Source: a virus
DNA: 64,000 bases
Virus record (IMG/VR): IMGVR_UViG_3300045988_085724
Location: 33,123-97,122 of that record
Reading direction: 5' to 3' (one strand)
The notes under the pieces are model-generated. The model made no database searches, was not told the origin of the DNA, and was given only the letters and a program-made list of their open reading frames with translations. The position numbers were made by a program, and so were the translations under genes. Positions 1 to 36,216 of the stretch are shown one piece after another; position 1 is the first letter of the stretch; each line of letters starts with the position of its first letter.

Positions 1-28
1 TTGGTCCTTTATAACTAATTGTTGCCAT
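1..28 (-). CDS. 5' end of a further late gene that continues off the window
   Basis: ATG at 28-26 lies 8 nt after the TAA (36-38) of the upstream gene. It reads MATISYKGP.. and runs off the left edge. Confidence 0.35.
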
Positions 29-35
29 AATTATT

Positions 36-1574
36 TTATTTTACATTAGTAGCTTGTCTTTTATCCATTGTAGGCATATATGGAGCTGTACCCTATTCTG
101 TATCCTAATAGTATACTATATTATCTTTATTCGACCTCTATAAGAAGTATCTGTCAAGAATTGGTTTATGAGTTTTATCATCAATCTAAATTTCTCCATT
201 TTTCTTCCTAGGTGCACGGAACCATATATTCACAGCTTCACCTCTAAATCTTTTATTTACTCCATCTTGTTTATAATCTTTAGATTTTAGTTCACCTAAT
301 GCGTAAGTTCCGACTTGAGCAATTTCACTTTCATCTACGCCAGCCTATGCTGCCATCATTTTCAGTAAATTATTACTAGTACTGCGATGTTTGTGTGGCC
401 CGTCAGTAAAACCTTTATCGTTTGTATACATCCATCTTTTACTAACAAGTACGCTTCCAAGTTCATCCTTTGGAACATTATAATAACCTGTAAACCGGCC
501 GCTATTATCGTATACTCTAGTTATTCCTCTTCCAGATGGCGGATTTACTCTGTATGCAGGACCATTATGTACAGGGAATATGGCACCAGTATTTGTACCA
601 ATTCTACGATCCGCATCCTCAAATATATCTACACGTACTCCACCACCATTTCCATCTACATCGTATTTTTGATCAATTATCTTTTTCTGTTCATACGCAT
701 TGAGATCTAATGCATTATTAAAACTTGCTAGCTTAAACGGATCAGCCTCGTACTCTTTCTTCTTTAATTTATTTCGATTTGTAGATACTATTTCATCCAA
801 TAACTTATTATTTGCTTCTTCTGTTAATTGTTTATCGGACAATATTGGATTAGCTTTCCTAAGTTCTTCTTTAATTTTATGTAGTTGGAATTTGCCTTGC
901 GCACTACTAAGATATACAGGCATCTGCGCTTTAGCTATATTTTTTAAGTCATCAGAATTTAATTCGTACACTCTATTGCCACCTTCCATACCTTTATATA
1001 TAGGCTCTACGTCTTTAAACCATCCTTCAGTATCTCCACGTATTCCGGTATATTTATGCGCAACACCGTTCCATGCTCGACCAGATTTCAATGTGTCATA
1101 ATCTTTAAACGGACTATTTCCTTCTAATGCATTAGCATATTCATCGAATTCACGATCATATTGACCAGCCTTCTGAAGGTCACGTACATCTTTCATATAC
1201 TCTTTAGCGGCTTCTGCAGAACGTTTTAAGTTAGCTAAATCCTAATAAGGTCTACTATAAATGTAGTCATATATTGCACTTCTACCTTCGATACTTCTCA
1301 TTGGGTCTATTCCCTATCTACGTAAATCATCATATAATTTAGATGCTCCGCCTAAAGTAAGATTATAATACGCATCATTATCTTTAGCAAAAGGGCTTGA
1401 AAAACTTCGTGTATCTTTTACATACTCTTTTAAATCTTGCATTCCTTGCATATAATCTTGGCGCACAGCATTTGCATAATTCTACTGTGCTGCCAAGAAT
1501 AATTGTGCAGTTGCAGGATCAAACATGTCATCCATCTTATAGATAACAGGTTGTTCTTGTCCTAATATATTCAT
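36..1574 (-). CDS. virion/tail-associated protein (512 codons, TAG-recoded)
   Basis: One frame runs from ATG 1574 to TAA 36-38. It is interrupted only by 8 TAG (CTA on + at 1482, 1314, 1242, 345, 186, 138, 105, 93). Track ORFs 1482..1757 and 345..1196 are fragments of it. Confidence 0.75.
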
Positions 1575-1581
1575 TATTATA

Positions 1582-3726
1582 TTATTTATATAATGTTCTA
1601 TTAAATCTTCTTTCTTCCAGATCTGCTTTGCGATCGTATAAGTTAATAAGTCTATTATTATAATCTTGTGCGCTTGCAAATTGTTGCTGCTAAAATAAAT
1701 TCTTTCCAAGTGCTCCAAGCATATTAAGTCTACCTTGGTTAGCATTCTCCATACCAAGCAATCTACGTGCTATAGCCTCTCTATAAGCTTGCTGTTGTTG
1801 AGCAAGAGCAGTCTGTCGTCTAGTAGCATCTCTATCGCCAGCCTCCATTAATGCTTGTGCATAAGCTTGTTTATACTTATTATTTATGTCATTAGCTTCT
1901 CCGTACAATTTGGCCATATTCATCATATAGTTGTTACCATGCGCAGCTAACATCTTAGTACGTTGTCCAGCACTAAGTCCACCTTGTTGATTTATATTAT
2001 AAATACCTTGTCTATATGCATCACGTATCTATTGAGCTTGTTGATACGGATCAAAATACATTTGTCCAAGTATACTTAATGCTCTATCAGCATTGCTATT
2101 ACGGACATAGCTATTAGCAGCTTGTGGAGCAGAATTTTTATAATAGTTGTATTGGCTGTTAGGTATTCCGTATGCTCCAGCATATATTAATGGCTATAGC
2201 CAATTTAAATTAAATTTACCTTTATCATACTGAGGCATTGTACCGTCATATATATTCTATATCTTATGTTGCATTTCTTGTCTGTTTAATGGTTCTTTCG
2301 TGCTTTCTACAAGCTGCTATTGCATCAAGTCTAACTGCTTGAGGTTAAGCTCTTTAGTTTTGCTATCAGCATTTTTATTAGACTCAATCAACTTACGCAG
2401 TTTTTCATTCTTAGCGTACTATTTAGACATAGGAGCTACTTGGTCTGCAAATGATTTTCCATTAGTCCAATCTATATCATTACCTGCAATATAGTTATTG
2501 TCACCTTCCTGTACCGAACTATATTGATCATCTGCACGTTTCTTTCCTTTATCTATATAGGTCATCTTACCTTCATCGAAGTTTACAATAGTCTCTCCTT
2601 TACCAACCTTAGAGTTTATCGGGCCAAGATGATATCCATCTTTATCGAATACCATTCCATATCTACTTTTGCTAGGTTGATCTATTAAGTTATAATTTAC
2701 AGCTGTTTTTCCTCTATCGGCATTATATAAAGATGTACCAGTATAAGTATCATTATCGAATTCATTTCTAAGTCCTTCTGATGCTGCTACAGATTCAGCT
2801 TGCTTATTCTGATTAGCGTAACTTGAAATCAAAGCTTCTTTTCTGCGTCGTAATTCACGCTTACGTCTGTCACGTCCAAATAATGATCCTAAACCACCTA
2901 CGAGGCCACCAATTAATCCACCACCTATAATTCCAAGCGGACCGAGCGATGTACCAAGCAACGATCCTACTGCTAATGCAGATCCTACACCAGCTCCTAC
3001 TCCAGAAATACTATTGGATAATACTCTGTTATTTTCTCCGTACTTCAGCATTCTATCGTACGCAGAAGTATCTCCGAGGTTTTTAGTAGTATAATCAACT
3101 CCATTTACAGATTGAGTGATTTCATTGTGACTTTGGTCTATCATGCCTGAAGTTGGAATACTCGGACCTTTTGCAAAGCCACTTCCGAGATTATATAATC
3201 CGTACGCAGCACCTACTGCACTTAATGCAGTTCCAACAGTACCTCCTAAAGCTGATGTTGCTTGTTTTGTAGTTTCTTGTATAGCTTTTTTGCTAGCTTC
3301 TTCTCCGGCCTATTTTGCACCGGCAGACATTGCCTATCCGAGTGTATTATTTGCAGCAGCTTTCAACATCTGATCTGTAGACATCTTCGATATATTTGAC
3401 ATCATAGTTTTTGTAGAGGCCTATAATGCTGCATTAGAAGCTTTTTGACCTAGCCCGCCCATTATTGATGAATATTTAAATGCACCAGTCAATGGTTGTT
3501 TTAACATGGTAACATAAGGCGTGCCTGTACTTACAGCACCTTGCAATGATGGTTTATACATTCTGGCCTCTGCAGACATATCTTGTCCCTACTATATTGA
3601 AGGAGTACCTACATTAAAGTTATCACTTTGCTAATAACCAGATGCAGTCTATTTTGCTGCTAAATCATATCTAGGTAGTCCGTTTCGTATTTGTTTATAT
3701 TGTAATAATCTATCTCTTTTATTCAT
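1582..3726 (-). CDS. large structural protein with a glycine-zipper/TM-like block (ejection- or tape-measure-like), TAG-recoded
   Basis: Runs from ATG 3726 to TAA 1582-1584. Track pieces 2419..3144 and 1690..1953 join through TAG only (e.g. 3649, 3631, 3592, 3589, 2419, 1690). Contains GVGAGVGSALAVGSLLG..GGLIGGLVGGLG followed by RRKRELRRRK. Confidence 0.7.
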
Positions 3727-3728
3727 AA

Positions 3729-6700
3729 TTAATTGTATGATTGTCTAAATTTGGTTATTATATGTGATATTGCATGATCATTGTCATTACTATTCATCAA
3801 CAGTTCTTCTATCATCCATTTACCGCGTAATCTACGAATTCCATCTGCACACCTTGGTATCGGGAAGCATATATTTCCTTCTCTATTTGTATATTTATCG
3901 ATCATTCCAGCTTCATCTAAATCTGTATAGAGATTGCAGTTGAAATTATCGTAATCAGCAGTTTGTTTAGTATGACTAGAAGTCGTATTATATAATTGCG
4001 GGAAGACTATTTGCTGATTATCAAATACTTTTGTAACTGATGCATTTGGATTTACTACAAAGTTCAATCTGGCTGTATCATCAGTTGTTGGAGTTTCGCC
4101 ATCATTACACCAACGTGTATATGATGCAAAATTAGATCTTATCGAAATTGCATCAGTCTGATTTGTTAAATTATTATATACTGTAGCTAATTGTCCATTT
4201 AACACATCATACATAGACTACGCTATACCTAATTTGCAGTTAAATGCTAATGTCATTTCCTCACTTAAAATAGCGTTATTTTTAATTGGGTGAAACAATA
4301 ATTCATCGTTAATTGTGTCGTATGTAATTGTAGGTACTTGAGTATCGCCATTAATGTTTATCTACATTAGTGTCTTTACATTACAATTTTCCGTAAAGTC
4401 TAATACTGACATTTTAGTGCTACCATATGCGCCAGATGTAGCTTTGTATGCTGCAATACATTTATTGCCGTAATCAAACCAATATATATCGTTATCGACA
4501 TTTACTTTACACATATCTTGTGCCCTCATTCCAAACTTGGTACTTAAGTAGTCAGATCTCTGCAATACAGTTCCTTGTCCCAGTTGTATAAGGTTACTAT
4601 TTTCATCTTTAACAAGTGAACGCTCATTAACAGATAACTTACCAAATGCTTTAGTTTGCCAGAAATACAATGTATCTTGTGTAGTAAATAAATCAGTTAA
4701 TTCTCCGTATATTGGGTTAACGTCTATGTAATCCACAGGTTTAAATATATTCCAACTATTTAAAAGTTCTCCGTTAGTCTTTAGTTGTGAATAACATATT
4801 CTTTGTGTATAAGTATTCTACAGATATGTAGTGCTCTATGGAGAATATAAATCGTTACTGGTTCCGTTGTCAGAATAAATAAGGTTATATTGATGTACTG
4901 GTCTATCTTGTGAAGTTACACCCTTTATTTCACCAGCTTCAGCTTGTAAGTTAGCGTTATTTGTATTACGATAATTCATTCCATAATCGAAATACTGATT
5001 GATAGTACTTTCCATCGGAATATAATGTATTGTCTGCATAGACTGCAATGAACTCTTATCGTCATTAAAGTCATACGCTTTATACATGCCTTCGATCTCA
5101 TATATCTGTGTATACATATCACCTGTAAATACGCTCATCTTATTGATGTCATTTTCTCCTAAAGAACATGCTTTATAATCACCAAATCCATAATACGTAT
5201 CATATTGCTTAGACGACATATCTTTACCAGAATAGTGTATAGCAGGATGTGTGATCTCACATAGAAGTGTTCCCGGATAACTATTTAATTTAGATACTTC
5301 TTCCGGATCTTTAGAATTTACTTGAGGGTCGAATGATGGTATTAAAATTCCACCTAAAGCCGATGGACTGTAATAATTTGTTATAGGATTGGTCGTTATT
5401 ACTTCTCCAAAAATATATTTTAGACTGTGAGATTTTATTATTCCCCCGTTCTACGAATCTATTAATTTGCCCAATTGTTCTCTATCATCAGATAACTATA
5501 TTATCAAACACCTTGCGGCAGGACCGATTGGCCCAATAGAAGGGAAACTCCTGTGTTCATGGTTACCTGAATTCTCAACGTTTGTAAATTCAACGACATC
5601 CTTCCATGTACCTTCTGTCCATCCGAATTCATTATTTGTCCCTACAGGAATATCATATTTACTACTACAAACCCAATTCAAATAACTAGACGTAGATATA
5701 TTTTTAGCATATGATTTATATTTCTTTACAGCGTTACTTATTTTACTTCCATCCATGACATGATTAGAAAAACCATCCTCCCAATTAAGCATTCTTACGT
5801 TTGATATTTCACGTATCTACATAGAATAATTATTTTGGTTCAGATTAAATTTGGTATCTTTTGTAAACTAAACATTATCTATGTCTACTTTGTATCCGGA
5901 ATTTATATTGTTAGGCCTCAATACTGGCTCACCGTTGTCATATACAATTTTATTATCAGAATCTAGCATGAAAAATCGCCTAGAATATACAGTATTTGCT
6001 GAGTATAAGTACGACAATTTATTTACCTTATTGGATTTGTCTGATTTTGAATAACTTAACGCTTTATAATTTACATTTGTATATTTGCCAAATGTATAGC
6101 TGTATTTATCAAACCCGTCACTACTAAAATCTATAACAGGAACAAAACTTAACGAAAATATATGTGTTTTTTGTATCTAGTATGAGGCGACAGCACACTT
6201 AGACGTATAATCATCATATGCATCATCATTTGTAAATCTTACTATATCTGTTTCGGTTGGAGAATACAAATACAAAGCGGGCGTTAATGATATTTGATTT
6301 GTTTTAAGTTTGTTTAACGTGTCATCCACATACGTCTGTATCTCAGGGCAATATACCTAATATAGTCTATTATCAGACGCACCACTAGTCATTTGTTCTG
6401 GCCATTGTGTTGCATTGCCATTCGGATATGGAGTATATCCTATATACTAAGGATTACTTATAATAAATCCTGTAGGATAATATGGAGAGTACGTACCATC
6501 AACAAGTTTCTGTCTAACGGTACTTGCTATTACAACCTGTTGCAGTGATCTAGAATATTCATCTGTACGTTGACAACGTACTATTTCGTATCCGCATATG
6601 TGGTTTGTATTAGCAAAATCTTTAAATGCATCATTTAATGTAAATTCTATACCGATTTGTATTGTGCCTAATTCGTTTAATTTAATTATGCCCGGATGCG

Positions 6701-8438
6701 GAATTCGTATATCACCTATCCATATTACGTCACTTCTTGTACCGTCGTTCTTATACAATACTATGCCGTATCGGTATACTTCACCACGTTTAAGAGATTT
6801 GATACAACTACTTGTAATAGCATCATTATGAGTCACCTTATCTGGACGTGGAAACCCACAATCAGAAATAATATCATACGCATTCGGTAGAGGTACATTT
6901 TCTTCTTGGTCTTGAGGTATTTTGGGCTTGATATCAAAAACAGGTACAAATCTATCATCGGACAAATCGTACTGTAGATAATACGAATTATTTGTATCTA
7001 TCGCCTCATCGTCATCAATCTAAAGTAACTATAACCTCCATGAGATATAAACACCGCTACCTCCAATATAATTATTATAATCAAACATGGCGTTACTGTA
7101 CTGATTATCAAAATTATGATTTACATCGGCATATGGGTTTGAATAATCAGCATTGTTGAACATCTTATCGCTTATAAAAGCCTAAACTGCTTTATCACCA
7201 TTGTCAACCTAGTCAGGAGATTTAGACTCTGGTTTGTTATATGTATTTACATCTAGATACGGAATATTATACTTATTACCGCTAACCGGAGTAAACTATA
7301 TAGCCCAGAACTTTTTAAGATCTTCTCTATCTAATTGAAATATAGTATCATCCTTTACATTTCCAGCGAATAAATAGCCTTGATTTTGTTCAAGTAATTT
7401 AGGTATAATGTCCTGTCCATGTATCTAAGCGAACTCTTCAACGGATATAGTCTGTAAAGTCTTACGCCCGTTATCTATAACACTAATGTTTGTGCCTGTA
7501 AACTCACCGTCATATATCAGATCAATCTAAGCATTCTAATTAGGTTTTATATATTGTATTCTATATACCTATAGCCTATCGAATTGATCTATCTTCTCAT
7601 CAACTGCTATTCCTAACTATAAACCTATTGACGTAACTGTATCTTCAGCACAGCCAACTTCAGTATCACGAGAAGGATTTATGACTTGATATTTACGACT
7701 TAATGGTGCTAATTTACTAGTTACTCCATATTTCTTATAGAATCTATAAGTATATTGTACCTATGAAGTTTTAAGTTGTCCTCCTACGATTGCCTTATAT
7801 GTAATAGCATGTTTTGGGAAATACCTATTTTGACTAATTAAATCTATATCAATTTCTCCATCTGTTTTATGGGTTGTTTCATCTATTTTATACAGACTTT
7901 TAATATAATCAGTATCCTTTACATTGATCATCATTATCTTATGCTCGCCGTCTGCAATATATAGATTTACTACTTTGTCAGTTTCATACTGTAATACTGC
8001 CGAAACATTTCGCAAGTCAACTGCATCTTCTACTTTTTCTCGAATTTTTATTTTGCACAAGAATGCCCATCTGTATCTTGGTAATTCATCAGAAGCCTCT
8101 ACTTTATACAAATATATGTAATTATTATGTAGCTTAATTAAGATATTAGTGTCTCCTGACGTAATTATTTTTATTATCCGCTGAGTTTTATCGTCGTCGA
8201 ATTTAGGTACAATCTAAGTCGTATAAGTAATGTCTTCATTTAACGCTTTAACTGGAGTCATTACTCCGTATTTTCCATATGCAGCGATATCATTGTAGCT
8301 ATTTATTTTTGACGTACCGTACGGCCGCAAATTAACAGCATATATGTACTGGTTATTTTTAATAGTGTCATACGCAGAATCAGTATTCATACCACCAGTA
8401 AAAGTATTTATAAACGTATTATTCTGTTCAGTAGCCAT
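3729..8438 (-). CDS. giant tail/structural protein (1569 codons, TAG-recoded)
   Basis: Runs from ATG 8438 to TAA 3729-3731. Seven track pieces (8214..8501 down to 3729..4214) share one frame. I checked 6966-7340 codon by codon and found 5 TAG and no TAA/TGA. Confidence 0.75.
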
Positions 8439-9336
8439 AGTAATAATCATTATATAAAGACTGTTGTTTACCAATATTACTGAAGAATGTTTCATCTCCA
8501 TCCCAATCTGGTATTAACTTATTCCAGTCTCTCTTTATGTTCTGCATATCATCTGCTGTAGGCATCATAGCTTCTGCATATGCTTGATTTCTATAAAAAT
8601 TCCACTGTTGCTGTAAGTAAGAATAAACAGCACCGTTATTATTCACGCCTTTACCGCCGAGCTTTCCTTTAAGGTATTTTGAGAAATTTATTTTCATTAC
8701 TACATACCAATATATTGCCTCTTGATACGATGTCGTATCTGGGATAAGTGGATACCCACGCTCATCTGTAGCGATTGCTTTATATTGTAATTTAATGTAC
8801 CCATCTCGCATATTAGTAGCAATCCAACCTGGCTTAATAAAATATTCTGGTTTTTCATTAAGTCTATTGCGCAAATACTTCATTCCGTTTACTGTTGCAA
8901 ACTGTGATTGAGTGGTTGGATATTTATACTTCATCTCCTCGTGTTCGGGCTTAATTTCTTGCCTTTCTGCGGCTAAATTATTTGGGTCTGTAGGAAGTAC
9001 GTATTCTTCTTGAGCCTTAGGTATTTGTTTGCTTTTAAACAACCCTGTAGCAGTACTCATTGGCTGCCATGGTCCATTTTCATTCTTAGAATATGCCACA
9101 CCATCTAATACAATTAAATCGGCAGGCATCGGTATTTGATAGTCTTGTATTTTAAATATAGGTACGCCATCTATGCCAGACTCTCTAACTATATATTGCA
9201 TAGGTGCGCCTATCTTTTCAGTAGCTTCAAATATCCATTCTCTAATATCCTCAATACGCTATCTTACCTCAGACGAATCTAGGTCTGCCATAATCTTAGC
9301 TATGACAGCCTCACACTTAGTATACTTGTATATCAT
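8428..9336 (-). CDS. structural protein (about 300 aa)
   Basis: Runs from ATG 9336 (alternative 9291) to TGA 8428-8430, with one in-frame TAG at 9259. This extends track ORF 8428..9201 upstream. Confidence 0.6.
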
Positions 9337-9721
9337 TGATATCTATATAATCTTGTTTGTTGAATATTAACTAAGCTAGTTTACGTTTATTAGCGCGTAC
9401 TAAATTAAGTTGATATCTATATCTGTCTGGGAACGTCCTAGGTATCTTAGACCAATATAATCTAAATTTATACCCATCTGAATGTTCATTTAAATAATAT
9501 ATTCGCTTATTGTACTCTTTACTAGCTTTATAATCTACAGATAGAGACTTGCCATCATAGTTCTTAGGTCTATATTTACCAACCTATATCATACCTAATC
9601 CATAAGGCATTTTAAAGCCTTCTGAGCGCATGAATACGTGTTCTAGTATAATCTAGCACATACACTCTAATATGCGCTTATACGTAACGTAATCAATCTC
9701 TATTGGCATTCCTTTGTACAT
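9317..9721 (-). CDS. small basic protein, possibly HU/IHF-like DNA-binding
   Basis: Runs from ATG 9721 to TAA 9317-9319 (134 codons, 3 in-frame TAG). It is absent from the ORF track. The ..SEGFKMPYGLGMIQVGKYRPKN.. segment is weakly HU/IHF-like. Confidence 0.45.
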
Positions 9722-9740
9722 GTCTCTAAATGTAATTGAT

Positions 9741-10451
9741 TTACTATTGTTCATCTTGTGGTCCATGTGGTTTAACACTGGCTAATGTAGCATTGTTACT
9801 ATCATCGCTAGGTCTATTTAACATAAACGACAATTCGTTTTTAAGTATATTATTCTTGATTGGAGGAACTAACCATGCGGGTATCTTTACTTCATCCTCA
9901 TCGATATCATCTCCATCTTCAGCATCTTCTATATCTTCGTATATAGCCATTACCCAAATATACTTAAATTTACTATCATCAGGCAATCCTTGTACGTATA
10001 TATAGCCTCCATCATAGTAAGCAGTAATAGCATTACCTGTGTACTTTCTAAATGCTTGGTAATGTTTACGTACGTGATTCATGTACTGTATTATACAACC
10101 ATTTTGATCATGCACGCTAAGTATGCTTGATTCGTCGTTATTATATATACCTTCTAATTTTTCCTTGGTACGCTTAGTGTTGTTTGGCCAATGATCATCG
10201 TCTGTAGGATTTATTAACTCTAAGGGACCTTTTTCTCTAATAAATATATCATCTATATAGTCCTCAAGCAGTTCGTCGTCGACAGCCTACTCCTTCTATT
10301 TATCAAGCCTGTCTTTAAGGATCATCTACTTATAAGCTCTAATCCAAACGGCTATTTGATGTCTTGACAAATCTTCACTTTCACTAATATTGTTATTGCG
10401 TACTATTAAAAGTATATCATCTATAAATTCTCTTAGTGAAATATATGTCAT
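9741..10451 (-). CDS. hypothetical late protein (236 codons)
   Basis: Runs from ATG 10451 to a terminal TAG-TAA pair (9744/9741), with 3 further in-frame TAG near 10,300. Track ORF 9744..10115 is its C-terminal part. Confidence 0.65.
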
Positions 10452-10456
10452 AATTA

Positions 10457-11113
10457 TTAATTGTTTGATTCAACTATTCTTACATCTTTACTTTTAAGTA
10501 AGTCGTTTGTATTTACTATGTTGTATTTATACTTAGTAACTTTCTTAAAGTCCAATGTAAATAATCGTTTAAAGAAATTCTTTTTATTTTTATATTCTCT
10601 TTTAGTATATACGTATAGATATTGTTCATTTTGTAAGTCTATTGCTATATTTACAGTATCGTTACCTATAGTATATTTAACTTTAGTTAGAGGGTTATAT
10701 AATATACTATCTGTATATATACTATCTTTAACTATAATATTACCCCCTACCCCCTTGCTGCCTATAACGTTTAATACCTAGGTTTGAGTTGCTGCAGTAT
10801 GTAGCTGCTTTGGTTTTATTTTTAATTCTTTACGTACACTATCTAATTTATGAAGTACAGAATCCTTTGAATTCTGTAATTGTTCGACTGTAAGCTTTAA
10901 TACATTAGAAGCCTACTAAGAGTCGCTAAGCAACCCCTAATAGGCTTCAATGTTGTTCTAAGCTGTTTCTAAGCTCTGTGACAGCTTTTTATTCTAATTG
11001 TGAAGAATTACTCCCCAGCACAATAAAAGTCCAACACAAAGCCCGGAAATGGCCTTAAATAGAGTCTTACGATTGTTGAACAGATACTTCAGTATTGTTT
11101 TTATCGTCATCAT
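10457..11113 (-). CDS. spanin-like protein (N-terminal TM anchor + coiled coil), heavily TAG-recoded
   Basis: ATG 11113 lies inside the 3' end of the holin gene; the stop is TAA 10457-10459 (218 codons, 6 in-frame TAG). Reads MMTIKTILKYLFNNRKTLFKAISGLCVGLLLCWGVIL, then a heptad-like Q/L/K-rich region. It is completely missing from the ORF track. Confidence 0.6.
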
Positions 11114-11609
11114 GTTTTTTCAATTCAATTTCTACTCCAGTATAAGCCTCCCCTTTCTTCTTTAAGAATTTACTTAAAGCTCTCCAAGGACCGTTTGGAT
11201 TCAATGTATTTAAATTTTCAAGTATTGACCATATTTCAGTTAATGTTATAATAACTGTCGCGCCACCTGTCAATACAAATACGCCTTCGGTACCAAGAAC
11301 TGCATATTCAAGCATTCGTGCTAAACATATTATAGCGAACTCAGCTTTTATTTTATTCCATGTACCATGCCTAGTATGGTCACTAGTAATTTTGCAATGC
11401 TATTTCTTTGCAACAGCTATTCCATAGAACATATCTACAGTAGATGCAGTGAAACAACATGCGAGTAAGCCTATAATAGGAGTAAAGTAAGCAGTAATAA
11501 GTGCTCCAGCAGCAACACAAATCTTTCCTAGTATTGTGTTACCACTTATTGTATTTATAACTTCATAGATACTTGAGCATACTTTTATTATAGACTATCC
11601 TAAACTCAT
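11067..11609 (-). CDS. holin (Phage_holin_4-like), TAG-recoded
   Basis: ATG 11609 overlaps the TGA of the upstream gene (ATGA); the stop is TAA 11067-11069. There are 2 in-frame TAG (codon 5 and mid-gene). It has several hydrophobic helices, and ..TLTEIWSILENLN.. resembles the E-S-x-S-I-x-EN holin motif. Confidence 0.65.
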
Positions 11610-12034
11610 TGTATTGTAATATTAATTTTACCTTCTTTATAAGCTTTTTCTAATAACGGAAATAATTTGTCGTATGTAATCTTTGATTCGACCACTTTAC
11701 CGACAACTTTATTTTTACCTACTATTATACATCCTAGAGAATCCTTGGCTGTATTTCCAGTATGAATCCTTATACCTTCATAGCCTGGCACATTCAATAT
11801 GTGTGCCATTCTACGTTTAAATCTATTACTGTAATCAATGATTAATGAATATGTACCTGTAGGTATTGCTGTTTCACCGTACACTTTCTTTTTCTTTATG
11901 TCATTGATTGACATGTTTTGATTTAATCCACGATCTTTATCTTCAATCGTGTCGCAGAAATACACATTGTCAATATATAACTTGCCAATAGTATATGTTT
12001 CTTTCTTGGCTATACGTTTCAGTAATATATTCAT
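11606..12034 (-). CDS. putative cell-wall hydrolase (DUF5675 / YkuD-like His-Cys motif), candidate endolysin
   Basis: Runs from ATG 12034 to TGA 11606-11608 with no TAG. Motif ..VPGYEGIRIHTGNTAKDSLGCIIVG.. sits immediately upstream of the holin. Confidence 0.5.
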   Translation of the reverse strand: MNILLKRIAKKETYTIGKLYIDNVYFCDTIEDKDRGLNQNMSINDIKKKKVYGETAIPTGTYSLIIDYSNRFKRRMAHILNVPGYEGIRIHTGNTAKDSLGCIIVGKNKVVGKVVESKITYDKLFPLLEKAYKEGKINITIQ

Positions 12035-12038
12035 ATCA

Positions 12039-13160
12039 TTAATCCTCCCAACTACCAGGGTCACTAGTAATAGTTATTGTAATATTGTTCTTTGTAATAG
12101 GACTATATATCCAGAACGTGCGATTATCATTAGTATTAACAGTACACCCGTCACCTTGAGCACCAGTAACATCTCCTACAGATGCACCTGGGGTTTTAAA
12201 TGCTTCAAACTAAATTATCTGTTTAGGGTCACCTGACAGACAATTATTGTTTACAAATATTTCGGAAGGGCCTTCAACAGTAACAGTACTCTCATGAACG
12301 TATTTAACAGTATGCCATTTTCCAGAACTAACTACCTTCATTGTCGCATTTATAGCTACATTGTCCCTCAATAAATATGTAATCTCTGTATTCACATCAC
12401 TATATTTATCAATTCTATTAATTTGCCCGTTTTCACCTACAGCTATAGCAGATGGACCTCCATGCATGGCAACAGTAAACAATTCATTGAATTCATCCGG
12501 AGTTACTTCTTTAGATGCACCGTTCGAGTAATGAAGCTCTATACTATATACAACATGGTTATAATCCTCATCTCCAATATTAAATACTTGCTATGTTTCA
12601 AGTGTTAATGTGTTAGGAATACTTATGCTTGTTATATATGGAGTATCTAAGTCGATTACTGTATCTGTGTCAATATCTTGGTCATTACTGGTTAATGCAA
12701 ATACTACGCCTTTATCTATAGTATACGTACGTAAGTTATCTGCGCCCCATCCTGTTTGATACAGTGTAAGTACAATAACTACACGATATTCTCCTAATAG
12801 CTTCTAGTCTACAGCAGGAAAATAAGCCTCTATCTTATTCTGTTCGGCCAACAGTCTAGACGGTGCTAAATATTCCTTCTTAATGCTCATAAAAGGCGTA
12901 GAATTTACGCCAAAACCATTGTATCCAGGAAACCAGTGAGGAGCGTCTATATTGCATGGGAATACATTGTACATCGGTTTGCCACAGTTACATATATTAT
13001 ATTGTGCAGGATCATATGTTTGAGGAAACGGATTAACGTTGCTATCAGATTCAGGTATGAAATAACATCTCAACTGTTTGATCATCGTAGCATCAAAATC
13101 CGTTAATTCATGTAATGTAGTCTATACACGAATATCATTGCCTATTCTTATTCTTTTCAT
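12039..13160 (-). CDS. structural protein (373 codons, TAG-recoded)
   Basis: Runs from ATG 13160 to TAA 12039-12041. It joins track ORFs 12804..13085 and 12210..12482 through TAG (at least 4). Confidence 0.65.
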
Positions 13161-13170
13161 ATTATTCGTG

Positions 13171-13215
13171 TTAAAACAATAAAAGCTAGAATGGGTAAAT
13201 CCCCACCCTAGCTTT
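13171..13215 (-). terminator. rho-independent terminator after the abundant structural gene
   Basis: The minus strand reads AAAGCTAGGGTGGGGATTTACCCATTCTAGCTTT followed by TATTGTTTT. Confidence 0.6.
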
Positions 13216-14412: not shown

Positions 14413-15108
14413 TCACTCTTGAGTATTCACTTCATTAGAAATAGTCTGATAGCGTTGCTGCATAGGTATCTAGCTTTCTATGTACATCTATGCTGCCATC
14501 TTGATTATCTCTGGCATTATTACATCTGGAAAATCGGAATACTCTTCTTTTGGATTATCCAGACTTATTTTATTTGGATTTCTAAGATAACCTAATGTGT
14601 ATTTAGTTATCTTATATTTCTTATCAGTTAAGAGATCGCATCCATTTTGTGTCTTAATACGCAATGGCCTAGCTTTATAATGACGATAATGGAAGTCAGT
14701 AAGTGTATTATTTACACGATACATAAAGCTATCTGCAGTACATTCAAATACTGACGTATCGAGTTCATGTCCATCATCAATCGAATCTATAACTACATCC
14801 TCATTTAGTACAAACATCATATTTTCAGGATAAGTTACTGTATACTTATTATACGTAGCGCGACTTTCATCCACACTACTTAAATCTAAATTGCTTGATA
14901 CAAATAGGTTTATTAAATCTTTAGTACGTTTCTCATTCTACTCATATGATGTGAAATGTGGTGCATTGCCATTAAATCTAGTTTTACAGAATTTATAAAC
15001 AGCCTGATTTAACCAATACAAAGAATCGTCAGTAGCAGGCTTATTGAGAGTATCATCTATTTGGTTTATCTCTCGCTCAAATGCGGCTAATATCTATATA
15101 TTTGTCAT
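14413..15108 (-). CDS. head-tail connector-size protein (231 codons, TAG-recoded)
   Basis: ATG 15108 overlaps the upstream TGA (ATGA); the stop is TGA 14413-14415, with at least 4 in-frame TAG. It contains track ORF 14488..14874. Confidence 0.65.
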
Positions 15109-15854
15109 CATTCATCCTCCTATTCATCTTGTTGGTTATTCTATTGATTAGATTGTCTCTAAGGCTATTTAGAAGCTGTCTAAGGCTATGAAGCACCTCC
15201 GCGCTTATAGTTTATAAATAACTAAACAGCGCCGCTTACAAGCTCATTAAAACACTCGTACGGAAGTTCACAAGCAACGCCATCGCCAAGTATAGTAAAG
15301 TTTGCCGGTATCTTGATATACCTAATGTCTATAGCTATTATTTTAGTATATTCATCTGTAATTACTTCAAACGTAGTTCCTTTTCCAGCATTCTTCATAA
15401 CTAGTAATGGTCTACGAAGTATTTTACCTTTATTATAAGGATCTCGCATTATTTGGTTATATTGCTGTGAATTTATATAATCATTGCCAACCCAAACCTA
15501 AGTTTGCGAATCTTCTTCGTCATATGGTTTTGCATAAGAACCTTCTATTAAAGAAGTAGAATCAATATACATATTGAAATCATCCAACTTAAACAGATTA
15601 TATTCATCCGGGACACATTCTCCCCAAACAATAAGTGTTTTGAGATAATCATCAATACGATTAGAAGCATTTGAATTAGGCTAAACGCGATCTTTTGTTA
15701 TATATAACTCTTTAACGAACTGATTTTGATATTCATTTAAGAATGCATAAATATCTTCAGTATCAATCTTATCAACTGTTTTAGTTGACGGAAGTATAGT
15801 TTGAATTCTACGTTCAAATTCTATCCCCAATTGTCTTGTCTATTCTAATGTCAT
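15108..15854 (-). CDS. head-tail connector-size protein (248 codons) with a Q-rich tail made largely of TAG codons
   Basis: ATG 15854 overlaps the upstream TGA; the stop is TGA 15108-15110. With TAG=Q the C-terminus reads GASQPQTASKQPQRQSNQQNNQQDEQEDE. Confidence 0.65.
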
Positions 15855-17485: not shown

Positions 17486-18997
17486 TTAAGCACCAACTGT
17501 AGTCATGCCATTATTAGTATGCTCAGCGTCATCTGCATCGCAGTACATAATACCACAAGACAGCGGATTACGGAGCATAATACCCTCCTCACCGAGGAAG
17601 TGTACCTGATAACCATCACGGCTGTTAGAACGTACAGTATTGATGTTGTTAGCGTATCCAGCAGGAGTTACTGAACCAGCAGTACACCACTGAACAAATT
17701 CACGACCCTTGCGGCAAACCTTAACAATGTTAGCCTGGCCATCACGCTGACCAAGATCAATGAACAAGAATGTGTATGACATCAAAGGTTTACCTGACAG
17801 AGGATGAAGCTTACGGAACATTTCCATGTTATCAAACATAGCGCAACGCTTTACAGTAAGTTCAATACCATTAGTCATCTTATAAGTTGTAAACTGTCCG
17901 CCAAGAGTAAGCTCCTGACCAGAACCAGTAATGAAGTGTGTATCAATCATCTGGAAGCTAGCTACCTTATCTTTCATGATACGGTCGAATTCACGGATAC
18001 CCATTTCTCCTGTCAAAGCCATAAATTTACGCTCATTAGTACCAAGCAGATTATAGCACAGATCGAAAAGGAATTCCTCGAACAACTCACATGTCAGAGT
18101 TGTATAGTAACGTATGTTAGCGGGCGAAATCTGCTCGAACAGACCTGCTGAAATAGCTACAGGACGTCCGTTTGAACCTTTAAGGTTGTATGTACCATCA
18201 GCATTACGGTTAGACTTAGAGAACAGAAGAGCCTTCTCTTCACGTTTCTTCCACTCACGAAGAGCCTTCCAGTACTGATAATCTGACCACAAATAAGACT
18301 TCTTACCAGTCTCAGGATCAGTCAGAGCAATAGCAAGTACTGTAGAATAAGCATCACCAGTAATATCATAAGTAAGACGCAGAGTCATAAGATTATTGCG
18401 CATCTTAAACGGCGTCTGATAGTTGATGATATCAGCCTCATCACTGTACTCTTCGTAAGCTGAACCTACGCGGTCTACCTGACGACCTGGTAGCAGATAT
18501 ATACCAGGAATATAAGAGTTAGCAAAACCCTCAGCTACATAGCACTCGTATACCCAAGCGTTACCATCCTGATAAGGCATACCCTTTACGCGTACCTGGA
18601 AGTTGATGTCATCGAATGCGAGGATTGCACCAGGACCGTACCATTTCTCTTCGAGAGCGATATAGATAGGAGTACCATTAAGACCAGCTGCGGTATTTTC
18701 ATTTACATCTACACCGTCACACTTAGCCCACATAATATTAACTGCGTGGTCACCATCAATCATCACAGACCACTCATACTCACGATTATCAATAATCATA
18801 GTCTTGCCGAGACCACCGGTAATCATGTCAATGGCAGTAGATACGCCATCATCCTTTGTACCAAATACAAGTGAAAGCAGACCTGAAACCTGATGAGGAT
18901 TTGTCAGCAAAGCGTTAGAAATCATATTCTCGTCTACCAGATCAGAAAAACGCTTACCGCGATAGAGCTGGAGACCATTAAGCAAATTGTTATTCAT
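17486..18997 (-). CDS. major capsid protein (503 aa, TAG-free)
   Basis: Uninterrupted ORF ending in TAA. It has the highest GC and codon bias in the arm and lies directly downstream of the scaffold-like gene. Its size and position fit a crAss-like HK97-fold MCP. Confidence 0.75.
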   Translation of the reverse strand: MNNNLLNGLQLYRGKRFSDLVDENMISNALLTNPHQVSGLLSLVFGTKDDGVSTAIDMITGGLGKTMIIDNREYEWSVMIDGDHAVNIMWAKCDGVDVNENTAAGLNGTPIYIALEEKWYGPGAILAFDDINFQVRVKGMPYQDGNAWVYECYVAEGFANSYIPGIYLLPGRQVDRVGSAYEEYSDEADIINYQTPFKMRNNLMTLRLTYDITGDAYSTVLAIALTDPETGKKSYLWSDYQYWKALREWKKREEKALLFSKSNRNADGTYNLKGSNGRPVAISAGLFEQISPANIRYYTTLTCELFEEFLFDLCYNLLGTNERKFMALTGEMGIREFDRIMKDKVASFQMIDTHFITGSGQELTLGGQFTTYKMTNGIELTVKRCAMFDNMEMFRKLHPLSGKPLMSYTFLFIDLGQRDGQANIVKVCRKGREFVQWCTAGSVTPAGYANNINTVRSNSRDGYQVHFLGEEGIMLRNPLSCGIMYCDADDAEHTNNGMTTVGA

Positions 18998-28739: not shown

Positions 28740-28741
28740 GT

Positions 28742-29035
28742 TTAATTTTTATCTTCGTAAGTATTGAATAATTCTGAATCTCCAGTCTACGTATTTACGC
28801 CAATAGATGCTTTTAACGGATGAACATGTGTTACACTATCAGGAATCCCTGCAAATATATGCACCATTATGTTGTCGTCATTTTTAATACCGCCAGTACA
28901 CCACGTGTGTTCTTTAAGAAATTCATCAATATTACCATTATACTAGTCGTTGATGAAATCTGTCATCATCTATTTTTTTGAGTAATCGCTACTCGTGAGC
29001 TTCTCAAAAGCAATTTTTGTAAAATTCATCATCAT
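28742..29035 (-). CDS. small late protein (97 codons)
   Basis: Runs from ATGATGATG at 29035 to TAA 28742-28744 with 2 in-frame TAG. It is not in the ORF track. Confidence 0.5.
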
Positions 29036-29038
29036 TCG

Positions 29039-29557
29039 TTATCTAGGATTTTCGTAAAGACCTATTACACCTCCACCTTTAACTCTACCGGTTTCAGCCT
29101 GTTCAGCCTTTGCTTGTTTCATCGCCATATCAAGCGATTTAATTATTCCACTTATATCCTTGAGAAGCTTAGACACTTTAGTAGCACTATCTATATCTAA
29201 ATCTGTCTCAGAATAACTATTCATTACACTCATAATCGCCTCTGCTGCATGTTTCGACGAAGTAAGCAAACGAGTCATCGGAGTTTCTTGAAACTCGTTA
29301 AACCGTTTTGCCAACTCCATCATCTATGCATCAGGTTTAAAATTCTCATCCTTAAAGACATCCTTAGCTACTCTCCACGTACGCTCCTTTTCTGGATATG
29401 CCTCATATGGAGTATTCCATTTATATCGCCATACTATAAATTCGATTTTCTTCAACGCTTCTTGTTTATCTTTAGCGTTATTATAGTAATCTTTAAATGG
29501 AGGTATAGCTAATTCATCAGTCTTTAGTATTATCTTATTTCCCTATATATCAAACAT
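29039..29557 (-). CDS. small late protein (172 codons), possible small-terminase position
   Basis: Runs from ATG 29557 to TAA 29039-29041, with TAG at 29543 and 29324. Translated codon by codon. Track ORF 29039..29323 is its C-terminal half. Confidence 0.6.
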
Positions 29558-29985
29558 TATGTTAGTTTAGTTAATGCGCCATGCATAATAAATGTAACTT
29601 GGCTATTATTTGCAGATAACTTACGCACAATCGCTGTAATAATGTACATGTTATTATTTGCAGTATTATAATAATTAGTAGTATAATATAACGTCATACT
29701 GTTGTCTGCACTCGTCTCACGCTATAAATTAAATATAAGCGTTGGGAAATCATTTACTCCGACTGGTCCAAATGCATCTTGTACACCATTCCAAATAATA
29801 TATTGAGGTGGGTATCCATTTCCAAGAGCATCTCCTCTCTATGTAAATATTAGTTTTTGCTAGTCTTCTGGTATACTGTACGAGTACGTATCCGTTGTTT
29901 TACTACCTAAAGTAATCGATATAGGATGAGCAAATTTTGTCCAGTCTTTTAGGCGAACAAGTCCAGATCTGTCTAATGTTTCCAT
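29557..29985 (-). CDS. small late protein (142 codons)
   Basis: Runs from ATG 29985 to TAA 29557-29559 (TAATG overlap with the next gene), with 3 in-frame TAG. Confidence 0.55.
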
Positions 29986-35720: not shown

Positions 35721-35738
35721 ATGTCTATATTTAATTAG

Positions 35739-36000
35739 TAGCCCATGTAGGTATCGATCCCACTCCTTCGGGGTTCTTCCAACATCATGTCACCATGACC
35801 GTAAAACGTTGTTGGCTGGACTTTGTCTTCACCATGCTTTCGTTTAGGTGTCTCGTATAAAGTCTCTACACTCGGTATTTAAACCTAGCTCGGCGTTATC
35901 TACTAGAGACGTTCGCCGACTTAGCGAGATGTTCATCTAAATGTTTCCAAATAGAGCTCCACCAAAGAGCCCGACGTGCTAGCCAGTACACAAATGGGCA
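35739..36000 (-). tRNA. amber-suppressor tRNA(CUA), Gln-like body, interrupted by a group I intron
   Basis: Exon 1 (36000-35966) is TGCCCAT-TT-GTGT-ACTGGCTA-GCAC-G-TCGGG-CTCT. Exon 2 (35775-35739) is AAC-CCCGA-AGGA-GTGGG-ATCGATA-CCTAC-ATGGGCT-A. Joined, they form a 72-nt cloverleaf with anticodon loop CTCTAAC (anticodon CTA). Confidence 0.8.
35776..35965 (-). ncRNA. group I intron (190 nt, no ORF) between anticodon positions 35 and 36
   Basis: P1 pairs exon GCUCU with intron GGAGC, with a U.G at the splice site. P10 pairs GGU, adjacent to the internal guide sequence, with ACC of exon 2. The intron ends in G. It has R-like GUAGAGACUUUA and S-like GAAGACAAAGUCC elements (P7 GACUUU/AAAGUC) and GAAA- and GUGA-capped hairpins. 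Confidence 0.75.
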
Positions 36001-36216
36001 ATAATGTTGACATTTGTATCCCTCTGCCAACGAAGGGTGTAATTTATGCATCATTACAAAGCCGGACCTCATTCGTGTCGTTGTCTTCGCAGGACAATTA
36101 ACCGATCCTGTGCAATCGGTTTGATTATTTCGTAATCAACGCATATTTTATAAACTATCGTTTACTAAATATGAAAGTAATATAACCTCCTTTCTTAAGG
36201 GAGATTAATATTTGGG

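What the first reader, a model, noticed from the sequence alone, without database searches (positions are those of the whole stretch)
10457..12034. A lysis cassette hidden by recoding: TAG-free hydrolase, holin with 2 TAG, spanin-like gene with 6 TAG
Three overlapping or abutting genes form a canonical lysis module.

- **11606-12034:** YkuD/DUF5675-like His-Cys hydrolase with no TAG.
- **11067-11609:** a holin whose fifth codon is TAG.
- **10457-11113:** a protein with an N-terminal TM anchor and a coiled coil. It starts inside the holin gene, contains 6 TAG, and is completely invisible to standard ORF calling.

The membrane-disrupting components cannot be completed without the suppressor, whereas the enzyme can. 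This matches the proposal that stop-codon recoding guards against premature lysis. Here it is coupled to an intron-gated suppressor.
Basis: partly seen in the sequence, partly recalled or inferred. Interest (0 to 1): 0.7.

Follow-up and report, generated by a model that had tools for sequence, protein, structure and literature searches.

The report
Recoded lysis genes of crAss-like phage
Three adjacent late genes of a crAss-like gut phage (a cell-wall enzyme, a holin and a membrane-anchored spanin-like protein) are real and readable only if TAG means glutamine, but they are already annotated in a 95%-identical published genome, and relatives do not support recoding as a lock aimed at the membrane-breaking parts.

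Summary
On the minus strand, 11606-12034 encodes a TAG-free DUF5675 protein. 11067-11609 encodes a Phage_holin_4_1 holin with TAG at codons 5 and 70. 10457-11113 encodes a 218-aa protein with six TAGs, made of an N-terminal TM helix, a helical stalk and a beta-rich basic C-terminal domain.

The window is a crAss-like phage, 94.9% identical over 9700-13200 to CrAssphage cr131_1 (Suoliviridae). That record already annotates all three genes with recoding, as "putative transpeptidase", "holin" and "hypothetical protein". TAG-recoded lysis cassettes in crAss-like phages are also published (Borges et al.).

The lysis-cassette reading holds. The third gene belongs to a conserved family of 292 clusters that always sits beside holins or an amidase. 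It has only weak Rz-like profile hits and no o-spanin partner, so it is spanin-like and not a demonstrated spanin.

The "enzyme free, membrane parts locked" design is not supported:
- In this genome the hydrolase has only two Gln codons (P=0.55).
- In 30 relatives the holin is usually TAG-free and the hydrolase often carries TAGs.
- Only the spanin-like gene is consistently TAG-rich, including a conserved tandem TAG-TAG.

The suppressor tRNA does carry a group-I-like intron, but cr131_1 has an intron-less version at the same site.

The parts
11606..12034 (-). Putative endolysin. A 142-aa DUF5675 protein with no TAG, no signal peptide and no hydrophobic segment. His91 and Cys102 are invariant (motif H-x10-C, ending G-C).
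   Evidence: Pfam PF18925 E=2.9e-32, and Tlde1_dom at 20.9 bits, below its cut-off. phrog_1501. Invariant columns. No TM segment. Orthologue cr131_1 gp59 is annotated 'putative transpeptidase'.
11067..11609 (-). Holin, 180 aa, Phage_holin_4_1 family, with 3-4 hydrophobic segments. In-frame TAG at codons 5 and 70. The start overlaps the hydrolase stop (ATGA).
   Evidence: PF05105 at 36.3 bits against a 22.2 gathering score. phrog_199 holin. TIGR01593 at 27.2 bits, below its cut-off. Hydropathy. cr131_1 gp58 is annotated 'VOG0641; holin'.
10457..11113 (-). Spanin-like protein, 218 aa. TM helix at about residues 17-39, helical stalk at about 40-95, and a basic beta-rich C-terminal domain at about 103-200. 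Six in-frame TAGs. It overlaps the holin gene by 47 nt.
   Evidence: Translation. Hydropathy. AF2 model with pLDDT 92.5. Weak Rz-like spanin PHROG hits. 292 family clusters. BFVD matches named 'Lysis regulatory protein(-like)' in cr6_1 and cr111_1.
10913..10918 (-). Tandem TAG-TAG (codons 66-67 of the spanin-like gene). These are the most conserved amber positions in the family clade.
   Evidence: Alignment columns 67 and 68 are TAG in 19/28 and 26/28 dereplicated sequences (the window plus relatives of 50-69% identity), while nearby synonymous sites are mixed.
10937..10996 (-). Three further TAG codons just after the TM helix: codon 40 at 10994-10996, codon 52 at 10958-10960 and codon 59 at 10937-10939. 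Without suppression the product ends after 39 residues, leaving only the TM helix.
   Evidence: Columns 53 and 60 are TAG in 15/28 and 21/28 aligned sequences and Gln (CAA/CAG) in most of the rest.
11595..11597 (-). Holin TAG at codon 5. No alternative in-frame ATG, GTG or TTG occurs before codon 60.
   Evidence: Sequence read directly..
11400..11402 (-). Holin TAG at codon 70, inside the Phage_holin_4_1 domain match (residues 37-150).
35738..36000 (-). Suppressor tRNA(CUA) interrupted in the anticodon loop by a group-I-like intron of about 190 nt (about 35776-35965). It lies at the head of the TAG-containing late block on the same strand.
   Evidence: ARAGORN with introns allowed. Rfam Intron_gpI at 26.9 bits, E=1.7e-4, below the gathering score. 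The spliced sequence folds as tRNA(cta). The 5' exon GCUCU pairs with GGAGC of the intron with a U.G at the splice site, and the intron ends in G.
13182..13215 (-). Terminator-like hairpin with a 14-bp stem and a T-rich tail. It lies between the TAG-free 364-aa virion gene and the transcription stretch that holds the 373-aa gene and the lysis cassette.
   Evidence: Consensus scan. Function is inferred only.

Best explanation
This is the lysis cassette of a TAG-to-Gln recoded crAss-like phage, a strain-level relative of Cacepaovirus simiae / CrAssphage cr131_1. It is embedded in the late virion operon between the tail-ring genes.

**Proposed mechanism (inferred from family knowledge)**
1. The cytoplasmic DUF5675 enzyme accumulates without harm. 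It is a putative L,D-peptidase of the YkuD/Tlde1 type with a His-Cys pair.
2. The multi-TM Phage_holin_4_1 holin permeabilises the inner membrane and releases the enzyme to the peptidoglycan.
3. The inner-membrane-anchored 218-aa protein acts in the periplasm at the last step. Most likely it disrupts the outer membrane as a single component without an o-spanin. Alternatively it regulates the holin.

The holin and the 218-aa protein, like 24 of the 31 late genes, can be translated only once the phage's own tRNA(CUA) is made. So recoding ties lysis to the late programme as a whole. It is not a lock specific to lysis.

**Shown:** the gene models, family memberships, recoding, synteny and TAG distribution.

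**Inferred:** the enzymatic activity, hole formation, outer-membrane disruption and timing.
For: - **Gene models and TAG positions:**
- **Family hits:** DUF5675 at E=2.9e-32 and Phage_holin_4_1 above the gathering score. Holin and Rz-like spanin PHROGs.
- **No export signal on the enzyme, so it depends on a holin:**
- **Identity of the phage and prior annotation of the same three genes:**
- **Genome-wide late-gene recoding:** 144 TAG in 11,815 codons, with the early genes TAG-free.
- **TAG aligns with Gln:**
- **Suppressor tRNA(CUA) upstream on the same strand:**
- **Synteny of the third gene.** In 30 IMG/VR relatives it always lies directly downstream of either the Phage_holin_4_1 holin or a non-orthologous 88-101-aa protein with one or two predicted TM segments (phrog_8278), and upstream of Ring2.
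- **Context of distant family members.** They lie next to Phage_holin_4_1 (L004), Amidase_2 (L037) or small multi-TM proteins (L038).
- **Other lysis genes.** No other lysin or spanin is annotated in the whole cr131_1 genome.
- **Published precedent.** TAG-recoded crAss-like lysis cassettes with a TAG-rich spanin are described in bioRxiv 10.1101/2021.08.26.457843.
Against: - No biochemical or genetic data exist for any of the three proteins.
- The YkuD-like fold of DUF5675 could not be confirmed. The AF2 model reached only pLDDT 73, and neither Foldseek against the PDB nor a profile search of PDB sequences gave a significant match. Tlde1_dom scores below its threshold.
- The third protein has only weak Rz-like hits (E=8e-4) that cover the TM and coiled-coil part, which is prone to compositional matches. 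It has no Pfam or NCBIfam family, no o-spanin partner and no structural analogue in the PDB.
- The cassette sits among tail-ring genes, so a virion-associated role for the hydrolase is not excluded.
Confidence: 0.8

Rival explanations
1. One reading: recoding is a lysis-specific safety lock. The membrane-disrupting components (holin and spanin) are deliberately TAG-gated, the harmless enzyme is left ungated, and release is controlled by splicing of the intron in the suppressor tRNA.
For: - In this genome the pattern is literally true: 0, 2 and 6 TAGs.
- The spanin-like gene is TAG-rich in all 31 loci examined, at 2.4 TAG per 100 codons against 0.3-1.1 for its neighbours. Its TAG/Gln fraction is 0.44 against 0.30 for Ring2 (paired Wilcoxon p=0.005). 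It also has a conserved tandem TAG-TAG.
- Borges et al. report the same bias for a crAss-like spanin.
- The suppressor does contain an intron.
Against: - Within the genome none of the three counts departs significantly from the late-gene background (P=0.55, 0.28 and 0.09). Twenty-four of the 31 late genes, mostly virion genes, are equally gated.
- Across the window and its relatives, the holin has zero TAG in 12 of 21 loci and the hydrolase has 1-5 TAGs in 6 of 12.
- In Borges et al. the endolysin itself was TAG-enriched.
- cr131_1, 95% identical, has an intron-less tRNA(CUA) in place of the intron-bearing one.
- Retention of TAG can also arise from AT-biased mutation, because leaving TAG needs a T-to-C change. 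Other codons also show position-specific conservation, for example AAC 25:1 at column 55.
- The relatives are not phylogenetically independent.
Confidence: 0.15
2. The 218-aa protein is not an outer-membrane disruptor. It is a lysis-timing regulator, an antiholin-like type II membrane protein whose periplasmic domain binds the holin or senses the envelope, comparable to T4 RI.
For: - It is always encoded next to a holin and overlaps the holin gene.
- Homologues in cr6_1 and cr111_1 are named 'Lysis regulatory protein(-like)'.
- No o-spanin partner exists.
- The helical stalk is short and the globular beta domain is unlike the Rz coiled coils.
- In L040 a family member is followed by a separate 117-aa TM-plus-coiled-coil protein that itself looks Rz-like.
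Against: - The 'lysis regulatory protein' name probably derives from P2 LysB, which is itself an Rz equivalent (my own knowledge, not tested here).
- Twelve of 53 family members hit the Rz-like phrog_739, the best at E=9e-8.
- The partner holin is replaced by a non-orthologous small TM protein (phrog_8278) in many relatives while this protein stays conserved. That is harder to reconcile with a specific holin-binding regulator.
- A Gram-negative host needs some outer-membrane step, and no other candidate is present.
Confidence: 0.25
3. The cassette genes, or at least the DUF5675 enzyme, are virion or tail components used at entry. They would pierce peptidoglycan during DNA and cargo ejection instead of causing end-of-cycle lysis.
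For: - The genes lie inside the tail-barrel gene cluster, between Ring3/4 (14413-15111), Ring2 (9741-10451) and Ring1 (8428-9336).
- In cr60_1 the DUF5675 homologue lies next to a receptor-binding protein gene.
- In many relatives the DUF5675 gene is absent from this position.
Against: - A multi-TM holin and a strongly hydrophobic N-terminal TM anchor are not expected in virions.
- A sequence-profile search for the third protein's family, single-sequence and profile searches for the hydrolase, and Foldseek with models of both found no significant match among PDB chains. I did not check that the crAss001 virion chains are in that copy, and crAss001 belongs to a different family, so this is weak.
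- The hydrolase gene is translationally juxtaposed to the holin through an ATGA overlap.
Confidence: 0.1

Closest known systems
CrAssphage cr131_1 (NC_055902.1; Suoliviridae, Oafivirinae, Cacepaovirus simiae) genes gp59, gp58 and gp57
   Same: - 94.9% nucleotide identity over window 9700-13200.
- Same three genes, with the same lengths (429, 543 and 654 nt), order and overlaps.
- Already translated with TAG read-through and labelled 'putative transpeptidase', 'VOG0641; holin' and 'hypothetical protein'.
   Different: - The window's third gene starts one ATG earlier (218 against 217 codons).
- The suppressor-tRNA locus differs. The window has an intron-bearing tRNA(CUA). cr131_1 has an intron-less tRNA(CUA) plus a free-standing homing endonuclease.
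- By coordinate arithmetic, the window also lacks the HNH insertion that splits cr131_1's major head protein gene.
TAG-recoded crAss-like lysis cassette described by Borges et al. (bioRxiv 10.1101/2021.08.26.457843; later Nat Microbiol 2022)
   Same: - Late structural and lysis genes are recoded TAG to Gln.
- A phage suppressor tRNA is present.
- The spanin gene is preferentially TAG-rich.
- The same proposal is made that recoding prevents premature lysis.
   Different: - Their cassette has a lysozyme-type amidase that is itself TAG-enriched. Here the enzyme is a TAG-free DUF5675 protein.
- I could not verify that their 'spanin' family is the same as this one.
Two-component spanins (lambda Rz/Rz1; P2 LysB/LysC)
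   Same: - The third gene of a holin-endolysin-spanin cassette.
- An N-terminal TM anchor with N-in/C-out topology expected.
- A helical periplasmic segment.
- Weak profile similarity to Rz-like PHROGs.
   Different: - No o-spanin lipoprotein gene is embedded, overlapping, adjacent or elsewhere.
- The helical stalk is short, about 55 residues.
- The C-terminal half is a conserved basic beta-rich domain with 18-22-residue strands, not a second coiled coil.
Unimolecular spanin (phage T1 gp11)
   Same: A single polypeptide proposed to bridge both membranes, with a beta-rich periplasmic portion (my own knowledge of T1 gp11).
   Different: The topology is opposite. T1 gp11 has an N-terminal lipobox and a C-terminal TM. 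This protein has an N-terminal TM, no lipobox and no C-terminal TM.
YkuD / L,D-transpeptidase fold enzymes (MEROPS C82), including the T6SS effector Tlde1
   Same: - A small domain with invariant His and Cys in an H-x10-C motif that ends G-C.
- A sub-threshold Pfam Tlde1_dom match spanning that motif.
- A 2026 preprint classes DUF5675 lysins as C82-like.
- Related crAss genomes label it 'L,D-carboxypeptidase/transpeptidase'.
   Different: The match is below the Pfam threshold. My model and Foldseek search did not recover the fold. The activity is untested.

Membership tests
Phage_holin_4_1 (PF05105) holin | Profile score at or above the Pfam gathering threshold | tested here: met
   36.3 bits against 22.2, E=6.9e-9, residues 37-150 of 180. 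Also phrog_199 'holin' at E=5.5e-7. TIGR01593 is below its cut-off, at 27.2 against 40.2.
Phage_holin_4_1 (PF05105) holin | Small protein with multiple TM segments and a charged C-terminus, encoded next to the lysin | tested here: met
   Hydrophobic segments lie at about 25-67 (two helices) and 103-130, and the tail is rich in K, D and E. The ATGA overlap with the DUF5675 gene is read directly from the sequence.
Phage_holin_4_1 (PF05105) holin | Forms lethal inner-membrane lesions that release the endolysin | not testable with these tools
   Needs expression in a host that carries an amber suppressor, or a TAG-to-CAA recoded construct.
DUF5675 (PF18925) | Profile score at or above the gathering threshold over the full domain | tested here: met
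   111.3 bits against 26.7, profile positions 2-113 of 114. 6,703 database homologues, and all 120 listed carry PF18925.
YkuD / L,D-transpeptidase-like (C82) peptidase | Conserved catalytic His and Cys motif | tested here: met
   H91 and G101-C102 are invariant in 21 homologues of 67-95% identity. They are also conserved in the IMG/VR orthologues.
YkuD / L,D-transpeptidase-like (C82) peptidase | Significant sequence-profile match to YkuD or Tlde1 families | tested here: not met
   Tlde1_dom scores 20.9 bits, below its 30.1 cut-off. The PDB L,D-transpeptidase hit at E=0.037 aligns outside the catalytic domain motif. A profile search against PDB gave nothing significant.
YkuD / L,D-transpeptidase-like (C82) peptidase | YkuD beta-sandwich fold | tested here: inconclusive
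   The AF2 model has pLDDT 73, with residues 34-54 and 94-99 below 50. Foldseek against the PDB found no match with E<=0.001.
i-spanin (Rz-like) of a two-component spanin | N-terminal TM domain followed by a periplasmic helical or coiled-coil domain | tested here: met
   TM at residues 17-39, peak hydropathy 2.06. Helices at 14-62, 75-79 and 84-95 in a model with pLDDT 92.5.
i-spanin (Rz-like) of a two-component spanin | Cognate o-spanin (a small outer-membrane lipoprotein with a lipobox) encoded embedded, overlapping or adjacent | tested here: not met
   The other frames of 10300-12100 hold no lipobox ORF. The late region of the window has none. The whole cr131_1 genome has none, apart from a 160-aa early-region lipoprotein candidate.
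i-spanin (Rz-like) of a two-component spanin | Significant profile similarity to known Rz families | tested here: inconclusive
   phrog_739 at E=8.1e-4, phrog_214 at 2.3e-3 and phrog_89 at 8.7e-3 for this protein. Twelve of 53 family members hit phrog_739, the best at 9.1e-8. The matches cover only the TM and coiled-coil part. There is no Pfam or NCBIfam spanin hit.
Unimolecular spanin (T1 gp11 type) | N-terminal lipoprotein signal plus C-terminal TM domain | tested here: not met
   The only TM is N-terminal. There is no lipobox and the C-terminus is hydrophilic.
TAG-to-Gln recoded late-gene block of crAss-like phages | In-frame TAGs confined to late genes, TAG aligned with Gln in homologues, and a phage-encoded tRNA(CUA) | tested here: met
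   144 TAGs in the 31 late genes, while most early ORFs listed have none. Columns 53, 60, 68, 111, 113 and 170 mix TAG with CAA and CAG. tRNA(cta) at 35738-36000.
Group I intron in a tRNA anticodon loop | Rfam Intron_gpI at the gathering score; a U.G pair at the 5' splice site in P1; a terminal G | tested here: inconclusive
   26.9 bits against a gathering score of 50, E=1.7e-4. P1 pairing (GCUCU with GGAGC, with a U.G) and a 3'-terminal G are present. Splicing was not tested.

The most novel reading that the evidence does not exclude
The 218-aa family would be a new class of outer-membrane-disrupting lysis protein in phages of Bacteroidota. It comprises 292 clusters at 50% identity. Its parts are an N-terminal inner-membrane anchor, a short helical stalk and a conserved basic beta-rich C-terminal domain with 18-22-residue strands and no PDB analogue. 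It would act as a single inner-membrane-anchored component, with no o-spanin lipoprotein and with the opposite topology to T1-type u-spanins. Its expression would be held under an unusually tight amber lock: a conserved tandem TAG-TAG plus two or three further conserved TAGs just after the TM helix. That lock would be under selection and not a product of mutational drift.
Probability: 0.25. Interest if true: 0.55.

Novelty: already known. Interest (0 to 1): 0.25.

Why it matters
The practical lesson is that standard-code gene callers shred this cassette, as the Dulem virus 42 record shows, so lysis genes of recoded gut phages go missing from annotations.

Scientifically, the general phenomenon is already published and this locus is already annotated. 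The open part is the third gene. Bacteroidota phages lack well-characterised spanins. This large, conserved, holin-linked family with no lipoprotein partner is a concrete candidate for how crAss-like phages breach the outer membrane. Its consistently TAG-rich coding gives a tractable test of the idea that recoding controls lysis.

Tried and rejected
1. **Embedded or separate o-spanin.** All frames of 10300-12100 read with TAG=Gln, a lipobox scan of the whole window and of the full cr131_1 genome found none. The only lipoprotein-like ORF is a 160-aa early-region gene (window 50411-50893).
2. **Structural analogues of the spanin-like protein.** Foldseek against the PDB gave nothing significant. 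It returned only low-probability hits to pore-former beta-hairpins, which I do not rely on. A profile search of PDB sequences found only coiled-coil noise.
3. **YkuD fold for DUF5675.** The mediocre AF2 model, Foldseek against the PDB and a profile search of PDB sequences found nothing.
4. **Tail-hub identity for the cassette proteins, or for the neighbouring 364-aa and 373-aa proteins.** There were no PDB sequence hits and no Pfam hit.
6. **Literature on DUF6549,** which 8 of 53 family members hit weakly. None was found.
7. **The search of protein representatives with the TAG=Gln translation.** I used the identical database protein P0001 instead.
8. **In-genome significance of the TAG pattern.** It is not significant.
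Full report
**What is there**

All genes in this part of the window run on the minus strand. With TAG read through, three ORFs tile 10457-12034.
- **11606-12034:** 142 codons, no TAG.
- **11067-11609:** 180 codons, with TAG at codons 5 and 70.
- **10457-11113:** 218 codons, with TAG at codons 40, 52, 59, 66, 67 and 112.

The holin start overlaps the hydrolase stop (ATGA). The third gene starts 47 nt inside the holin gene. Under the standard code the region yields only fragments of 82 aa or less. The only correction is that the second holin TAG is at codon 70.

**Genomic setting**

The window is a crAss-like phage.
- Region 9700-13200 is 94.9% identical to CrAssphage cr131_1 (NC_055902.1; Suoliviridae, Oafivirinae, Cacepaovirus simiae).
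- That RefSeq record already annotates the three genes with TAG read-through. They are gp59 "putative transpeptidase", gp58 "VOG0641; holin" and gp57 "hypothetical protein".
- The minus-strand block 36-35720 holds 31 tiling late genes with 144 in-frame TAGs in 11,815 codons. Most of the plus-strand early ORFs listed have none.
- The cassette is embedded among tail-barrel genes: Ring3/4 at 14413-15111, Ring2 at 9741-10451 and Ring1 at 8428-9336.
- A strong terminator-like hairpin at 13182-13215 precedes the stretch that contains the cassette.

**The three proteins**

*Hydrolase.* It is a full-length DUF5675 domain (E=2.9e-32) with a sub-threshold Tlde1_dom match. His91 and Cys102 are invariant, and there is no hydrophobic segment. 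It is therefore a cytoplasmic, holin-dependent enzyme. I could not confirm the YkuD-like fold. The AF2 model reached pLDDT 73, and Foldseek and PDB profile searches were empty. Related crAss genomes call it an L,D-carboxypeptidase/transpeptidase, and a 2026 preprint classes DUF5675 lysins as C82-like.

*Holin.* It passes the Pfam Phage_holin_4_1 threshold, hits the holin phrog_199 and has 3-4 hydrophobic segments.

*Third protein.*
- It has one strong N-terminal TM segment.
- A confident AF2 model (pLDDT 92.5) shows a long helix through residue 62, two short helices, and then a beta-rich domain with 18- and 22-residue strands.
- The C-terminal domain is basic, with 19 K+R against 10 D+E.
- Its family is large, at 292 clusters of 50% identity, and keeps this full architecture.
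- Sequence similarity to Rz-like spanin PHROGs is weak for this protein (E=8e-4). It is better for some members (9e-8) but is limited to the TM and helical part.
- There is no Pfam or NCBIfam spanin hit and no PDB analogue.
- BFVD matches include crAss proteins named "Lysis regulatory protein(-like)" and a Flavobacterium phage protein.

**Context evidence for a lysis role**

In 30 IMG/VR relatives of 50-69% identity, the third gene always lies just upstream of Ring2. It also lies immediately downstream of one of two genes: the Phage_holin_4_1 orthologue, or a non-orthologous 88-101-aa protein with one or two predicted TM segments (phrog_8278). This looks like a replacement in the holin slot.

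A 33%-identical standard-code homologue follows a Phage_holin_4_1 gene. More distant members lie next to an Amidase_2 gene or next to small multi-TM proteins. The DUF5675 gene is present next to the cassette in only some relatives, so the enzyme component is exchangeable.

**Spanin membership**

No lipobox ORF is embedded in or adjacent to the third gene. None occurs elsewhere in the late region. None occurs in the entire near-identical cr131_1 genome, apart from a 160-aa early-region lipoprotein candidate. The protein also has the wrong topology for a T1-type unimolecular spanin. I therefore describe it as spanin-like by position and N-terminal architecture, but I do not file it as an Rz/Rz1 or u-spanin member. 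An antiholin-like regulator remains a live alternative.

**Recoding and the "guard" idea**

TAG = Gln is supported by the alignment. At conserved Gln columns TAG alternates with CAA and CAG.

- The hydrolase has only two Gln codons, so P(0 TAG)=0.55.
- The holin has 2 of 4 (P=0.28).
- The third gene has 6 of 13 against a 26% background (P=0.09).
- Twenty-four of the 31 late genes carry TAGs.

Counting the window and its relatives, the holin has no TAG in 12 of 21 loci, and the hydrolase has 1-5 TAGs in 6 of 12. In Borges et al. the crAss endolysin was itself TAG-enriched. The differential-gating design is therefore not a conserved feature.

What is consistent is the TAG richness of the spanin-like gene.
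- It has 2-8 TAGs in every relative, or 2.4 per 100 codons against 0.3-1.1 for its neighbours.
- Its TAG/Gln fraction is 0.44 against 0.30 for Ring2 (p=0.005, sequences not independent).
- TAG positions are conserved, including the tandem pair at columns 67 and 68 (19/28 and 26/28 dereplicated sequences, window included), while neighbouring synonymous sites are mixed.

This agrees with the published spanin bias. AT-biased mutation and shared ancestry could contribute, and some ordinary codons are equally frozen.

**The suppressor**

With introns allowed, ARAGORN finds a tRNA(cta) at 35738-36000 with a 190-nt insert in the anticodon loop. Rfam gives a sub-threshold group I intron match (26.9 bits, E=1.7e-4). 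The 5' exon end GCUCU can pair with GGAGC in the intron with a U.G at the splice site, and the insert ends in G.

The flanks of this locus align to cr131_1 at 92-97% identity. There, however, the middle is replaced by an intron-less tRNA(CUA) plus a free-standing homing endonuclease. The intron therefore behaves as a dispensable mobile element. "Intron-gated" is unsupported.

**Verdict**

This is a genuine TAG-recoded lysis cassette that was correctly read by eye. The locus and the concept are already in the literature and in RefSeq. The residual novelty lies in the atypical, partner-less spanin-like family and its conserved amber codons.

Noticed in passing
window 36217-36435 (-): A TAG-free 72-aa protein with two hydrophobic stretches (by eye), of family phrog_38535. 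cr131_1 annotates it as 'putative lipoprotein' gp85. A homologue in relative L032 (2024-2257) sits inside the lysis cassette, between the DUF5675 gene and a small holin-like (phrog_8278-type) gene. A similarly placed 'putative lipoprotein' gene, not compared by sequence, abuts the L,D-carboxypeptidase in cr60_1. It may be an additional lysis membrane protein encoded away from the cassette, just upstream of the suppressor tRNA.
   Followed up: partly
window 35737-36043 (-) compared with L035 (cr131_1) 9189-10130: The suppressor-tRNA locus is a mobile-element swap site. The window has a tRNA(CUA) split by an ORF-less group-I-like intron of about 190 nt. cr131_1, 95% identical, has a divergent intron-less tRNA(CUA) followed by a free-standing homing endonuclease gene.
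   Followed up: partly
window 45353-45459 (+) and 47758-47827 (+): Two RAGATH-1 hammerhead ribozymes above the Rfam gathering score (67.7 and 66.9 bits). Each lies about 110-140 nt upstream of a tRNA gene: tRNA-Met at 45599 and tRNA-Gln(UUG) at 47938.
   Followed up: no
window 52430-52792 (+): ARAGORN calls a permuted tmRNA with tag peptide GNYNVVDYTHVA, and cr131_1 annotates a tmRNA at the equivalent place. Rfam found nothing there at gathering thresholds.
   Followed up: no
window 17486-18997 (-) compared with cr131_1 27379-29758: The window's TAG-free 503-aa gene appears to be an uninterrupted version of cr131_1's 'major head protein', which there is split into gp68 and gp66 by an HNH endonuclease insertion (gp67). 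Coordinate offsets imply that the window lacks about 817 nt.
   Followed up: partly
L018, L019, L021-L026, L029, L032 (about 2215-2550 in each locus): Relatives that lack the Phage_holin_4_1 gene carry an unrelated 88-101-aa protein with one or two predicted TM segments (phrog_8278, function unannotated) in the same slot. This looks like a non-orthologous holin replacement and a candidate new holin family.
   Followed up: partly
window 50411-50893 (+): A 160-aa early-region ORF with a good lipoprotein signal (…LLHVTSC). It is the only lipobox candidate in the phage. It may act in superinfection exclusion and is unlikely to be an o-spanin, given its size and early location.
   Followed up: no
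window 36500-36571 (-): An odd tRNA-like element next to the tRNA cluster. ARAGORN gives 'tRNA-???' with a 2-nt anticodon, and Rfam tRNA-Sec scores 23 bits, below threshold. The neighbouring tRNA at 36607-36689 has an enlarged anticodon loop or mini-insert, called Val(aac) by default and Ile(aat) with a 10-nt intron when introns are allowed.
   Followed up: no
L002 (Dulem virus 42, PP511876.1) 1-7093: This related GenBank record was annotated with the standard code.
   Followed up: no
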